From assembly GCA_964419675.1 (NCBI GenBank), contig CAYQPN010000003.1:11985-75984 (forward strand): a stretch of 64,000 bases of DNA, read 5' to 3'. Source of the DNA: an uncultured Candidatus Saccharibacteria bacterium. Lineage in GTDB: Bacteria > Patescibacteriota > Saccharimonadia > Saccharimonadales > SZUA-47. Positions 37,409-39,175 of this stretch are shown in pieces. Within the stretch, counting starts at the first letter, position 1. Every line of letters starts with the position of its first letter. The notes under the pieces were generated by a model. That model ran no database searches. It worked only from the letters and a program-made list of their open reading frames with translations, and was not told the DNA's origin. Position numbers and translations under genes: made by a program.

Positions 37409-38805
37409 TATTTTTTCTCCACAACTACTTCGTCTATGCCACCCTTCATATAGAAGGCTGATTCATTCTTATCGTCGTGCTTACCTCCCAAGATCTCTTG
37501 GAATCCGGCAATTGTATCGGCAAGCGAAACATATTTACCTTGGGCTCCGGTAAAAACTTCTGCAACGTGGAAGGGTTGTGTTAAGAATCTCTGAATTTTA
37601 CGGGCTCTTGAAACTGTCTGTTTGTCTTCGTCAGACAACTCTTCCATTCCCAAAATTGCTATAATGTCCTGCAAATCTTTGTAGCGCTGTAAAATTCTCT
37701 GAACTTCACGAGCAACTTGGTAGTGTTCGTCACCAACTATTTCTGGGTCTAGAATTGTAGAACTTGAGTCTAGTGGGTCAACAGCAGGATATAAACCTTG
37801 CTCAGTTAGCGCACGGTTCAAAACTATTGTTGAGTCTAGATGGGCAAAAGTTGTTGCAGGAGCTGGGTCGGTCAAGTCGTCAGCTGGGACATATACAGCC
37901 TGCACAGACGTAATTGACCCTTTCCTAGTCGAAGTAATACGTTCTTGAAGCTGACCCATCTCTTGAGCCAAGTTTGGCTGGTAGCCCACAGCAGATGGAA
38001 GACGACCAAGTAGGGCTGAAACCTCAGCACCGGCTTGAGTGAAACGGAAGATGTTATCAACAAACAATAATACATCGTTACCTTTATCTCTAAAACCTTC
38101 CGCCATTGTTAGCCCCGAAAGTCCAACACGCAAACGCGCACCTGGCGGTTCGTTCATTTGACCGAACACTAGGGAAGTCTTATCTAACACTCCAGATTCC
38201 GCCATCTCGTTATATAAATCGTTTCCTTCACGAGTACGTTCACCAACTCCGGCAAAGACAGAGAACCCACTGTGGAATTTTGCAATGTTGTTGATTAGCT
38301 CTGTAATAAGCACCGTTTTACCTACACCAGCACCACCGAATAAACCGACCTTACCGCCTTTTGTAATAGGGCAGATTAAGTCAATAACCTTAATTCCTGT
38401 TTCAAGAATTTCAACACTTCCAGATTGGTCGATTAGGGCAGGGGGTGCGCGGTGAATTACTGAATGTTCTTTAAAAGTTCCAGCCTTGCCATCAATCGGC
38501 TCACCGATAACGTTAAACATACGGCCAAGTGTTTCTTCGCCAACCGGCACGCTAATTGCTGAACCAGTATCTTTAACATCTGCTCCGCGTGACAGACCGT
38601 CAGTTGTACCTAATGAAATCGCGCGCACGCTTGATTCACTCAAGTGCTGGGCTACTTCTAGAATAATTTTTTGTTCGCCGATGTTGACCTCTAGCGCATT
38701 GTAGATAGCTGGCAGGTGTCCCTCGCTAAAGTCTACATCCACCACTACACCAACTACTTGACTAACTTTTCCTACTGTTGTCATTGTTTTTTCTGCTGTC
38801 GCCAT
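37408..38805 (-). CDS. atpD: ATP synthase F1 subunit beta
   Basis: 465 aa. GGAGVGKT Walker [18 protein letters not shown]. Confidence 0.98.
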
Positions 38806-38981
38806 TATACTTCTCCTTCTATTGTTGCTGTTATTGGTGGTAGTGTTAGTCCGTATGCCTCTTGATCGAGTAACTGTTGGTTTCTAGTCGGTATTAAACC
38901 TATTGCAAGTGCTTTTTCCATCGACATACCTTCCTGGGAGGGTCGCCGAGGGAAATCTGGAGTGCAGTCTATATATTCCAT
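38805..38981 (-). CDS. Unknown small ORF (58 aa) immediately upstream of atpD
   Basis: Below the ORF-track cutoff; translated by hand as [63 protein letters not shown] overlaps at both ends (38979-38983 and 38803-38807). The atpD Shine-Dalgarno (GAAGGAG) lies in its 3' end. Confidence 0.45.
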
Positions 38982-39175
38982 TATTCTATAGCCTCACCTG
39001 TAGTAGCTTGTGTTGGAGGAAGTTCAGGTACCGTGTCTTTTGCCGGATCAATAACTGCGTGGTACATTGCGTCGCGTGCTGCAAGGTCTACGAGTCCTGC
39101 TGCCATCGATGGTGAGTGTGGTCTAATACGCCTAGGCAGTTCTTCACCTACATATTTTCCATTTATTTCGTTCAT
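38981..39175 (-). CDS. Unknown small ORF (64 aa) immediately downstream of atpG
   Basis: ATGA overlap with the atpG stop (39172-39175). Weak similarity to the 58-aa ORF (PRR near the N-terminus; LPPTQATTGEAIE versus [12 protein letters not shown] at the C-terminus). Confidence 0.5.
   Translation of the reverse strand: MNEINGKYVGEELPRRIRPHSPSMAAGLVDLAARDAMYHAVIDPAKDTVPELPPTQATTGEAIE

What the first reader, a model, noticed from the sequence alone, without database searches (positions are those of the whole stretch)
38805..39175. Two tandem mini-ORFs (64 aa and 58 aa), possibly paralogous, between atpG and atpD
The 366-bp atpG-atpD gap is tiled exactly by orf64 (in the ORF track) and orf58 (below the cutoff; found by hand translation). 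They are chained ATGA, TAATG, TAATG. The two peptides share a PRR motif at a similar N-terminal position (ELPRRIRP versus DFPRRPSQ). They also share a similar C-terminal end (LPPTQATTGEAIE versus [12 protein letters not shown]). This suggests a tandem duplication that has been maintained at the protein level. The atpD Shine-Dalgarno lies inside orf58, so atpD translation may depend on ribosomes traversing these ORFs.
Basis: seen in the sequence. Interest (0 to 1): 0.65.

Follow-up and report, generated by a model that had tools for sequence, protein, structure and literature searches.

The report
Orphan small genes inside ATP-synthase operon
The two mini-ORFs between atpG and atpD are real-looking, translationally chained small genes, but they are not duplicates of each other; they are local examples of a widespread habit of Saccharibacteria of carrying fast-evolving, acidic small genes of unknown function between the genes for the F1 head of ATP synthase.

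Summary
orf64 (38981-39175) and orf58 (38805-38981), on the minus strand, tile the 366-bp atpG-atpD gap. Their junctions are ATGA/TAATG/TAATG, and each start has its own Shine-Dalgarno. Tiling is rare in shuffles (p about 0.001) and codon usage is gene-like.

The paralogy reading fails. Smith-Waterman p = 0.16 and BLASTP E = 0.19. The similar C-termini are codons that overlap the next gene's ribosome-binding site.

Neither ORF has a homologue in 5.8 billion proteins, in 160 related atp loci, or by profile comparison.

The window is a Saccharibacteria genome. Across 160 relatives, the atpA|atpG, atpG|atpD and atpD|atpC junctions are expanded (>100 bp) in 42%, 63% and 46% of loci. The Fo and stalk junctions stay tight. 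85% of expanded gaps are fully chained by operon-strand ORFs.

These ORFs are acidic, soluble and position-specific. They evolve 2-14 times faster than AtpG, yet pooled pN/pS is 0.37. That rate explains the orphan status.

orf108 and orf154 in the window belong to the same class. Function is unknown. I favour co-expressed small proteins linked to F1. A pure translated spacer and a selfish insertion are the rivals.

The parts
39172..40038 (-). atpG (F1 gamma, 288 aa); its TGA stop overlaps the orf64 ATG (ATGA)
   Evidence: PF00231, E = 2.5e-87; junction read
39183..39187 (-). Shine-Dalgarno GGAGG of orf64, 7 nt before its ATG, inside atpG
38981..39175 (-). orf64: 64 aa, pI 4.97. Low-confidence single-sequence model: one helix (residues 22-38), the rest coil. 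Orphan.
38992..38998 (-). Shine-Dalgarno-like GGTGAGG of orf58, 10 nt before its ATG, inside orf64. It encodes the 'GE' of the orf64 C-terminus.
38805..38981 (-). orf58: 58 aa, pI 4.25. Low-confidence single-sequence model: two short helices, the rest coil. Orphan. TAATG overlaps at both ends.
38813..38818 (-). Shine-Dalgarno AAGGAG of atpD, inside orf58. It is conserved in relatives whatever lies upstream, and it dictates the '..EGEV' C-terminus of orf58.
   Evidence: unstructured initiation region
37408..38805 (-). atpD (F1 beta, 465 aa)
   Evidence: PF00006/PF02874; conserved MATA.. start
40031..40357 (-). orf108: the same kind of chained acidic ORF between atpA and atpG (ATGA overlap with atpA, 8-nt overlap with atpG). 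It has one positional homologue, in L109.
36944..37408 (-). orf154: the same kind of chained acidic ORF between atpD and atpC (TAATG at both ends). Orphan.
40354..41946 (-). atpA (F1 alpha, 530 aa), upstream boundary of the expanded F1 junctions
36516..36944 (-). atpC (F1 epsilon, 142 aa), downstream boundary
   Evidence: PF02823/PF00401

Best explanation
orf64 and orf58 are two unrelated, genuine small-protein genes embedded in the polycistronic atp mRNA of a Saccharibacteria (Saccharimonadales) genome.

Each has its own Shine-Dalgarno inside the preceding cistron and a 4-nt or 1-nt stop/start overlap. Ribosomes can therefore load de novo or re-initiate from the preceding stop, and the two peptides are made together with F1 gamma and beta.

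The products are acidic and soluble. Low-confidence single-sequence models show one or two short helices and otherwise coil.

They are the local members of an order-wide, position-specific class of ORFs that sit only at the alpha|gamma|beta|epsilon gene junctions. In the window, orf108 and orf154 belong to the same class. These ORFs descend vertically, diverge 2-14 times faster than AtpG under weak purifying selection, and are often lost. That is why orf64 and orf58 now look like orphans.

Shown: coding character, chaining, non-paralogy, the class and its properties.

Inferred: that the peptides are made, and that their role is tied to F1 (assembly, stoichiometry or regulation of the soluble head) rather than to translation alone. 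The F1 link is the least secure step.
For: Coding and chaining in the window:
- Tiling p is about 0.001.
- Codon usage is gene-like for all four ORFs, and 0 of 80 spurious ORFs score as high.
- A Shine-Dalgarno precedes each start.
- There is no Rfam family, promoter or terminator in the gap.

The class:
- Among 160 related loci, gaps over 100 bp occur at A|G in 62/147, at G|D in 90/144 and at D|C in 53/114.
- The control junctions stay tight. Gaps over 200 bp occur at B|E in 0/92, E|F in 3/91, F|H in 2/96 and H|A in 2/109.
- Operon-strand ORFs cover at least 90% of the gap in 53/62, 70/90 and 46/53 expanded gaps. The opposite strand does so in 1, 3 and 3.
- 166 of 196 distinct expanded gaps are fully chained. 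263 of 373 junctions overlap or abut: -4 nt in 98, -1 nt in 89 and -8 nt in 49.

Selection on the protein: pooled pN/pS is 0.37 over 66 substitutions in close pairs, p = 6e-5 against neutrality. Individual dN/dS values are 0.10-0.45.

Fast divergence: ORF identity is 43% where AtpG is 92% identical (L059/L133), 32-37% where it is 92% (L025/L100), and 26% where it is 86% (L009/L090). The window's nearest relatives are only 83-84% identical in AtpG.

Shared physico-chemistry despite no sequence similarity:
- Median pI is 4.61 and 82% have pI below 6, against 6.45 and 41% for flank ORFs.
- Lys is at 0.53x and Glu at 1.53x. Only 10 of 227 have a TM-like segment.
- The window ORFs have pI 4.25-5.16.

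Position specificity and collinear order of families within G|D arrays. No family was found outside the junctions or elsewhere in the window.
Against: - No direct evidence of expression.
- No homologue of orf64 or orf58 exists, so selection on these two ORFs themselves cannot be measured. It is inferred from the class.
- About a quarter of genomes (29 of 106 with all three junctions known) have no junction ORF at all, so the class is dispensable. That is odd for a core F1 factor.
- No similarity to any known ATP-synthase accessory protein or any Pfam, NCBIfam, PHROG or PADLOC family.
- The AlphaFold models are low-confidence: pLDDT 65-69, pTM 0.24-0.29.
- A pN/pS of 0.37 is weak constraint. 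It may partly reflect Shine-Dalgarno and overlap constraints at the ORF ends.
Confidence: 0.55

Rival explanations
1. Translated spacers. The gaps are kept open for ribosomes only, to keep the long atp mRNA covered, avoid polarity or decay, and pass ribosomes on to the next F1 gene. The peptides themselves have no function.
For: - No sequence conservation of orf64 or orf58 anywhere.
- The predicted peptides are mostly coil.
- Overlapping junctions are the rule.
- ORF ends are dictated by the next gene's Shine-Dalgarno.
- ORF length and number vary freely between relatives.
- atpC in the window has no good Shine-Dalgarno after orf154, so it may rely on re-initiation.
Against: - Pooled pN/pS is 0.37, p = 6e-5.
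- Families are recognisable across AtpG divergence down to 52-56% identity and keep a collinear order.
- A strong shared acidic, Lys-poor composition is not needed for mere ribosome transit.
- 48 of 144 relatives simply have a tight G|D junction, which is the cheaper solution.
- The atpD initiation region is open and does not need unfolding.
Confidence: 0.2
2. Selfish or horizontally acquired small-gene insertions that lodge between highly conserved, highly expressed genes. They would be comparable to the intervening-sequence proteins of rRNA genes, and would be kept because excising them would disturb the operon.
For: - One junction family is the 23S rRNA intervening-sequence / Avd-like four-helix bundle (PF05635, E down to 2.9e-35). 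It is the only family found at two different junctions, A|G and D|C.
- Families are distributed patchily among relatives. For example, the L081 G|D ORF is related to that of L045, whose AtpG is only 58% identical.
- Diversity is very high: 268 clusters from 346 ORFs.
Against: - orf64 and orf58 have native codon usage, and their GC matches the neighbouring genes.
- No repeats, target duplications or mobility genes in or near the gap.
- All other families are junction-specific and collinear.
- Close pairs evolve clock-like with their flanks.
- The PF05635 genes sit with looser spacing than the tightly chained ORFs (coordinates).
Confidence: 0.1
3. One reading: orf64 and orf58 are paralogues from a tandem duplication, maintained at the protein level.
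For: Both are small and acidic, both have a PRR tripeptide near the N-terminus, and they share LPPxxAT near the C-terminus.
Against: - BLASTP E = 0.19 over 7 residues.
- Smith-Waterman p = 0.16 against 2000 shuffles.
- No DNA repeat.
- The C-terminal likeness is imposed by the Shine-Dalgarno.
- Acidity is a property of the whole class.
Confidence: 0.04
4. Chance ORFs in a non-coding spacer.
For: Both ORFs are short and have no homologues.
Against: - Tiling p is about 0.001.
- Codon-usage scores lie within or above the range of real genes, and none of 80 spurious ORFs reaches them.
- There is a Shine-Dalgarno before each start.
- The same strand-specific tiling is seen in 85% of 196 expanded gaps in relatives.
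Confidence: 0.03

Closest known systems
Translationally coupled, overlapping cistrons in bacterial operons (ATGA / TAATG junctions; for example in the E. coli atp and trp operons). Established knowledge.
   Same: 4-nt and 1-nt stop/start overlaps. The Shine-Dalgarno of each gene lies inside the preceding ORF. All genes are on one polycistronic strand with no internal promoter or terminator signals.
   Different: The coupled partners here are orphan ORFs interposed between F1 subunit genes that are directly adjacent in canonical atp operons and in 48 of 144 relatives. Functional coupling was not tested, and the atpD initiation region looks able to initiate on its own.
Small soluble regulators of F-type ATP synthase: epsilon C-terminal domain, zeta subunit of Paracoccus, mitochondrial IF1, cyanobacterial AtpTheta. 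Own knowledge.
   Same: Small soluble proteins. The genomic confinement to F1 gene junctions suggests a link to the F1 head.
   Different: No sequence similarity to any of them: no Pfam hit for the window ORFs or for 145 of 148 class members. The known regulators are conserved families mostly encoded outside the operon. The junction ORFs are hypervariable and dispensable. Binding to F1 is untested.
Extra small genes of atp operons: atpI, and atpQ/atpR of N-type ATPase operons. Own knowledge; the N-ATPase operon is described in PMC5376962.
   Same: Non-subunit small ORFs co-transcribed with ATP synthase genes.
   Different: Those are conserved membrane proteins placed next to the Fo genes. The junction ORFs are soluble and acidic (10 of 227 have a TM-like segment), lie only between F1 genes, and form no conserved family.
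23S rRNA intervening-sequence protein / DGR Avd four-helix bundle (PF05635, TIGR02436)
   Same: A small gene lodged inside a very conserved locus. Members occupy the same atp junctions in L030, L031, L075, L138 and L147.
   Different: orf64 and orf58 (and orf108 and orf154) do not match it. They are too short and are predicted to be mostly coil.
Taxonomically restricted (orphan) small genes
   Same: Singleton clusters among 5.8 billion protein clusters. Small and predicted to be mostly coil.
   Different: Orphan status here is best explained by rapid divergence of old positional genes, not by recent de novo birth. The codon usage is native and the composition is acidic rather than the basic, AT-codon-rich make-up expected of random ORFs in a 40% GC genome.

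Membership tests
Tandem paralogous gene pair | Sequence similarity between the two products above random expectation | tested here: not met
   BLASTP E = 0.19; Smith-Waterman p = 0.16, semi-global p = 0.16
Tandem paralogous gene pair | Residual DNA-level direct repeat or tandem duplication | tested here: not met
   TRF finds no repeat in 38805-39175. The only array is a 21-nt one at the atpD 5' end.
Translationally coupled operon cistrons | Stop/start overlap or abutment, with the Shine-Dalgarno inside the upstream ORF | tested here: met
   ATGA, TAATG, TAATG; GGAGG, GGTGAGG, AAGGAG
Translationally coupled operon cistrons | Downstream translation depends on upstream translation (for example, the initiation region is sequestered unless a ribosome passes) | tested here: not met
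   The atpD and orf58 initiation regions fold less stably than shuffles (z = +1.3 and +2.0), and the Shine-Dalgarno and AUG are unpaired. True dependence needs an experiment.
Known F1 regulators / atp accessory proteins (epsilon CTD, zeta, IF1, AtpI and others) | Match to the family profile | tested here: not met
   No Pfam or NCBIfam hit at E <= 1 other than a chance sub-threshold SCIMP hit (PF15050, E = 0.24; 12.3 bits against a 27-bit cutoff) for orf64
Known F1 regulators / atp accessory proteins | Physical association with F1 | not testable with these tools
   Needs pull-down, cryo-EM or complex prediction
23S rRNA IVS protein / Avd (PF05635) | Match to the PF05635 / TIGR02436 profile; a four-helix bundle of about 110-130 aa | tested here: not met
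   No hit for orf64, orf58, orf108 or orf154. The low-confidence models show one or two short helices.
Leader peptide / attenuator uORF | Very short ORF with alternative RNA hairpins or a terminator ahead of the regulated gene | tested here: not met
   No terminator-like site in the gap; weak RNA structure; no Rfam hit. The ORFs are 58-64 codons long.
Type II toxin-antitoxin pair or defence system | Match to known toxin, antitoxin or defence profiles; usually a basic toxin and an acidic antitoxin | tested here: not met
   No Pfam, PHROG or NCBIfam hit for orf64 and orf58. orf108 and orf154, scanned within alignment A1, gave no PADLOC hit. orf64 and orf58 themselves were not scanned against PADLOC. 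Both proteins are acidic.
Saccharimonadales F1-junction ORFs (class defined here) | Lies between atpA/atpG/atpD/atpC on the operon strand and fills the gap | tested here: met
   Coverage is 1.0.
Saccharimonadales F1-junction ORFs (class defined here) | Chained junctions (-8 to a few nt) | tested here: met
   Window junctions are -4, -1, -1. In the class, 263 of 373 junctions are <= 0.
Saccharimonadales F1-junction ORFs (class defined here) | Acidic, soluble product without a known domain | tested here: met
   pI 4.97 and 4.25, no TM segment; no family hits
Saccharimonadales F1-junction ORFs (class defined here) | Purifying selection on the peptide | tested here: inconclusive
   Shown for the class (pN/pS 0.37). 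It cannot be measured for orf64 and orf58, which have no homologue.

The most novel reading that the evidence does not exclude
Saccharibacteria carry a previously undescribed, hypervariable set of small acidic proteins, encoded only at the alpha|gamma|beta|epsilon gene junctions and made in step with F1. These proteins bind or chaperone the F1 head, for example as assembly factors or as inhibitors of wasteful ATP hydrolysis in these energy-limited episymbionts. orf64 and orf58 would be two such factors. The class would then be a new kind of ATP-synthase accessory protein whose rapid evolution hides it from homology searches.
Probability: 0.2. Interest if true: 0.8.

Novelty: new variant of a known kind. 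Interest (0 to 1): 0.5.

Why it matters
The gene order atpA-atpG-atpD-atpC is usually treated as an invariant, tightly packed block.

Here an entire bacterial order repeatedly carries extra translated ORFs exactly at the three F1 junctions and almost never at the Fo or stalk junctions. The ORFs share a physico-chemical profile and are under measurable selection, yet have no recognisable family.

If they act on F1, they are unknown regulators or assembly aids of a central enzyme in organisms (CPR / Saccharibacteria) whose energy metabolism is poorly understood.

If they do not act on F1, they are a clean natural system for studying how passenger ORFs enter, persist and decay inside an essential, highly expressed operon.

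There is also a practical lesson. 'Orphan' small ORFs can be old positional genes that evolve too fast for homology detection. And similar C-termini of chained ORFs can be mere imprints of the next ribosome-binding site.

Tried and rejected
1. Paralogy of orf64 and orf58: rejected.

2. A single gene split by a frameshift. orf64 + orf58 = 122 aa, similar in length to the single 122/123-aa G|D ORFs of L020 and L011. There is no similarity (p = 0.5-0.8). An independent assembly has the same frames.

3. orf58 as a diverged member of the family that is always last before atpD in relatives (fam0 plus L082 and L038). I thought I saw 'GMSM' and 'AYG' motifs by eye. The HMM score was -1.7 bits, p = 0.66 against shuffles, so I rejected it. 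The same holds for orf64.

4. Remote homology by family HMMs and hhalign against 178 junction families and singletons: best probability below 10% for orf64, orf58 and orf154.

5. Exhaustive phmmer of orf64 against 1.84 billion representatives: only itself plus two tandem-repeat proteins whose scores are inflated by the repeats.

6. Origin of gap DNA from duplicated atp gene fragments. The only atp-like pieces in gaps are frameshifted atpA or atpD in L029, L054 and L094.

7. Paralogues elsewhere in the 64-kb window, or relocation of other loci's families into the window: none.

8. An RNA element, promoter or terminator in the gap: none.

9. Structure-based search: not run, because both AlphaFold models are low-confidence.

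10. Literature: four full-text searches found no description of ORFs inserted between F1 genes in Saccharibacteria or Patescibacteria.

11. A closer relative that would allow dN/dS on orf64 and orf58: none in the genome or metagenome collections. The best AtpG identity is 83-84%.
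Full report
**What is at the coordinates.** The window carries a complete F-type atp operon on the minus strand:
- an atpI-like ORF, 44009-44335
- atpB, 43198-44019
- atpE, about 42940-43190
- atpF, 42353-42934
- atpH, 41949-42353
- atpA, 40354-41946
- atpG, 39172-40038
- atpD, 37408-38805
- atpC, 36516-36944

These come, with Pfam identities. Between atpG and atpD lie exactly 366 bp. They are filled by orf64 (38981-39175) and orf58 (38805-38981). The junctions are ATGA (atpG/orf64), TAATG (orf64/orf58) and TAATG (orf58/atpD). 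Each start is preceded by a Shine-Dalgarno inside the previous cistron: GGAGG at 39183-39187, GGTGAGG at 38992-38998 and AAGGAG at 38813-38818.

**Is it more than chance?** Yes.
- Operon-strand ORFs cover 100% of the gap. Of 5000 dinucleotide-preserving shuffles, only 0.1% reach 99% coverage and 0.9% reach 90%.
- A codon-usage log-likelihood was trained on 45 long ORFs of the window. It gives 0.50 for orf64 and 0.31 for orf58. Real 60-codon windows score 0.30 +/- 0.11. The 80 spurious ORFs inside genes average -0.06, and none reaches these values.
- No Rfam family, promoter-like site or terminator-like site falls in the gap.
- An independent Logan assembly of run SRR7369911 is 100% identical over 38273-39456 and calls the same two genes.

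**Are the two ORFs paralogues?** No.
- BLASTP aligns only LPPTQAT with LPPITAT (E = 0.19 for the single comparison) and the PRR region (E = 1.1).
- The local Smith-Waterman score is 27 against 22.6 +/- 4.2 for 2000 shuffles (p = 0.16). A semi-global alignment gives p = 0.16.
- There is no DNA repeat in the gap.
- The alike C-termini (..TTGEAIE*, ..ATIEGEV*) are the codons that lie over the next gene's Shine-Dalgarno and spacer.
- In relatives the atpD upstream region keeps (A)AGGAG(A) about 7 nt before a conserved ATGGCnACAGCA start, whatever lies upstream. The unrelated last ORF of L005 ends ..DEGEV* on the same 17 nucleotides as orf58.

**Homologues.** There are none for orf64 or orf58.
- In the 5.8-billion-cluster protein collection, orf64, orf58 and orf154 each match only themselves, even at permissive thresholds of E <= 10, 10 and 1. 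orf108 was not searched there. All four window ORFs are singleton 90% clusters.
- An exhaustive phmmer of orf64 against 1.84 billion representatives finds itself and two tandem-repeat proteins with repeat-inflated scores.
- Pfam, PHROGs and NCBIfam give no significant match. The only hit at E <= 1 is a chance sub-threshold Pfam match of orf64 to SCIMP (PF15050, E = 0.24).
- Single-sequence AlphaFold2 gives low-confidence models: pLDDT 68.7 and 64.8, pTM 0.29 and 0.24. They show one helix (residues 22-38) in orf64 and two short helices in orf58, otherwise coil. I did not run fold searches on such models.

**The context changes the picture.** The AtpG protein retrieves 80 genome loci and 80 metagenome loci. 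Of the genome records, which carry organism titles, nearly all that are classified below 'bacterium' are named Saccharibacteria, Saccharimonadales or Patescibacteria. AtpG identity runs from 48% to 84%. In these loci the three junctions between F1 genes are bimodal, either tight or expanded by hundreds of bp.
- Gaps over 100 bp occur at atpA|atpG in 62/147 loci, at atpG|atpD in 90/144 (up to about 1.3 kb) and at atpD|atpC in 53/114.
- The other junctions of the same operon stay tight. Gaps over 200 bp occur at atpB|atpE in 0/92, atpE|atpF in 3/91, atpF|atpH in 2/96 and atpH|atpA in 2/109.
- Operon-strand ORFs of at least 30 aa cover 90% or more of the gap in 53/62, 70/90 and 46/53 expanded gaps. 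Opposite-strand ORFs do so in 1, 3 and 3.
- Of 196 distinct expanded gaps, 166 can be walked from gene to gene through ORFs with every junction between -12 and +40 nt. Of 373 such junctions, 263 overlap or abut: -4 nt in 98, -1 nt in 89 and -8 nt in 49.
- The window shows the pattern at all three junctions: orf108 (40031-40357), orf64 and orf58, and orf154 (36944-37408). All are gene-like in codon usage and all are chained.
- Expansion is seen in every AtpG-identity bin. It co-occurs across junctions more often than independence predicts: 29 of 106 loci have none expanded and 23 have all three.

**What the junction ORFs are like.**
- phmmer groups 346 junction ORFs into 268 clusters.
- Families are junction-specific. 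All cross-locus tblastn hits fall in the same junction type. Hits first scored as 'outside' turned out to lie at junctions next to contig ends.
- Within G|D arrays the families keep a collinear order, for example [fam8][fam20] or [fam23], then [fam1], then [fam0], then atpD (coordinates; a fam1-fam3 and a fam0-fam27 link).
- The one exception is a family found at both A|G and D|C. It is the 23S rRNA intervening-sequence / Avd-like four-helix bundle (PF05635, E down to 2.9e-35; TIGR02436; phrog_3206).
- Of 148 junction ORFs of at least about 75 aa (146 from the relatives, plus orf154 and orf108 of the window), no other has a convincing Pfam, PHROG, PADLOC or NCBIfam match. The rest of the hits are two frameshifted atp fragments and a few single-member marginal hits, such as SspC (E = 2.5e-4) and SseB (E = 4.7e-4).
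- Despite the lack of sequence similarity, the ORFs share a profile. Median pI is 4.61 and 82% have pI below 6, against 6.45 and 41% for long flank ORFs. Lys is at 0.53x, Glu at 1.53x and Asp at 1.29x. Only 10 of 227 have a TM-like segment. The four window ORFs have pI 4.25-5.16.

**Rates and selection.** Junction ORFs diverge far faster than their flanks.
- ORF identity is 43% where AtpG is 92% identical (L059/L133), 32-37% where it is 92% (L025/L100), 45-60% where it is 90% (L015/L016) and 26% where it is 86% (L009/L090).
- dN is 2-14 times that of atpG in most informative pairs.
- In pairs close enough for unsaturated dS, dN/dS is 0.10-0.45.
- Pooled over seven ORF pairs, there are 36.5 non-synonymous and 29.5 synonymous changes on 1912 and 578 sites. 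That gives pN/pS = 0.37, with binomial p = 6e-5 against neutrality.
- The peptides are therefore under real but weak constraint.

The window's nearest relatives are only 83-84% identical in AtpG. Positional homologues of 58-64 aa would be expected at roughly 25-45% identity, which is undetectable. The only window ORF with a detectable positional homologue is orf108, which matches the 99-aa A|G ORF of L109 (tblastn E = 0.004; phmmer cluster). Orphan status therefore does not require de novo birth or recent insertion.

**How it most likely works.**

Shown from anatomy:
- The three starts each have a Shine-Dalgarno and a stop/start overlap, all on a single mRNA strand without internal signals. 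The ORFs can be translated in series with gamma and beta, by re-initiation or by independent loading.
- The atpD initiation region is less structured than shuffled controls (-7.1 against -10.4 kcal/mol, z = +1.3), and its AAGGAG and AUG are unpaired. The orf58 initiation region is likewise open (z = +2.0).
- So nothing indicates that atpD needs upstream translation, and a third of relatives do without any ORF there.

Inferred:
- The peptides are made. Their sequence matters somewhat, by class-level pN/pS and the acidic bias.
- The class is confined to the alpha|gamma|beta|epsilon junctions and is vertically inherited, so its role is probably connected with the soluble F1 head: its assembly, subunit balance or regulation. 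This last step is the weakest.
- The frequent complete absence of junction ORFs shows they are dispensable, and nothing links them to known F1 factors.

**Rivals.**
1. Translated spacers without peptide function. This is plausible for some members, but it sits poorly with pN/pS of 0.37, the shared acidic composition, recognisable old families and the availability of the tight-junction solution.
2. Selfish or horizontally acquired small genes. This is supported by the PF05635 family and the patchy family distribution. For orf64 and orf58 it is opposed by native codon usage, the absence of repeats or mobility genes, and the junction-specific collinear families.
3. Paralogous duplication: rejected statistically.
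4. Chance ORFs: rejected by tiling, codon usage and the class pattern.

**Comparison with what is known.**
- Mechanistically the arrangement is ordinary translational chaining of cistrons.
- As genes, orf64 and orf58 are unannotated orphan small ORFs. They are present in the protein collection with NCBI listed among their sources, but carry no name.
- The order-wide, junction-specific class appears not to be described in the papers I could search.
- The ORFs are not members of any known ATP-synthase accessory family, of PF05635, of leader-peptide attenuators, or of toxin-antitoxin or defence families, on the tests available.

**Verdict.**
- The paralogy interpretation is refuted.
- The coupling anatomy is real, but dependence of atpD on it is not indicated.
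- The two ORFs alone are modestly interesting. The class they reveal is a new variant of a known kind (operon-embedded, fast-evolving small genes) and deserves a targeted follow-up.
- Interest is 0.5. The most novel surviving reading, hidden F1 accessory proteins specific to Saccharibacteria, has a probability of about 0.2.

Noticed in passing
window 40031-40357 (-) and 36944-37408 (-): orf108 (between atpA and atpG) and orf154 (between atpD and atpC) are chained, acidic ORFs with gene-like codon usage, of the same kind as orf64 and orf58. orf154 is an orphan. orf108 has one positional homologue (L109, 99 aa).
   Followed up: yes
L031:3963-4337, L075:3617-4009, L138:491-886, L030:1315-1524, L147:~9-374: Genes for the 23S rRNA intervening-sequence / Avd-like four-helix-bundle protein (PF05635, TIGR02436) sit in atp junctions of five relatives, at atpA|atpG in some and atpD|atpC in others. 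This is the only junction family seen at two positions, and it hints that these junctions can accept foreign small genes.
   Followed up: partly
window 38767-38806: A 21-nt tandem duplication (1.9 copies, 78% match) lies at the very 5' end of atpD and encodes MATAEKT / MTTVGKV. Relatives confirm that the first ATG (MATA..) is the conserved start.
   Followed up: partly
window 41949-42353 (-): The delta (OSCP) subunit is only 134 aa and matches only positions 65-171 of the 172-position Pfam profile. Much of the usual N-terminal domain, which binds alpha, seems to be missing.
   Followed up: no
window 40354-41946 (-): AtpA is 530 aa and carries a Lys/Glu-rich C-terminal tail (..[11 protein letters not shown]) beyond the usual end. 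The atpA stop overlaps the orf108 start.
   Followed up: no
window 36939-36964 (-): atpC has no recognisable Shine-Dalgarno upstream of its TAATG junction with orf154 (CCCGGGTAGCATCTAATG). Epsilon may depend on re-initiation after orf154, unlike atpD.
   Followed up: no
L003 (JAYVTZ010000011.1): A 118-kb contig of a MAG labelled Burkholderiaceae carries a Saccharibacteria-type atp operon (AtpG 78% and AtpD 88% identical to the window) with junction ORFs. It is probably a mis-binned contig.
   Followed up: no
L029:3444-4974, L054:7171-8540, L094:~5650-6018: atpA (L029) and atpD (L054, L094) are broken into out-of-frame pieces in these records. This could be frameshift sequencing error or pseudogenisation. 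They inflated a few gap sizes and were excluded from the family analysis.
   Followed up: partly
L015, L016, L021, L025, L082, L100 G|D gaps: Several relatives carry arrays of two or three junction ORFs between atpG and atpD, with the families in a fixed order. That is consistent with an old multi-gene array that different lineages have pruned differently.
   Followed up: partly
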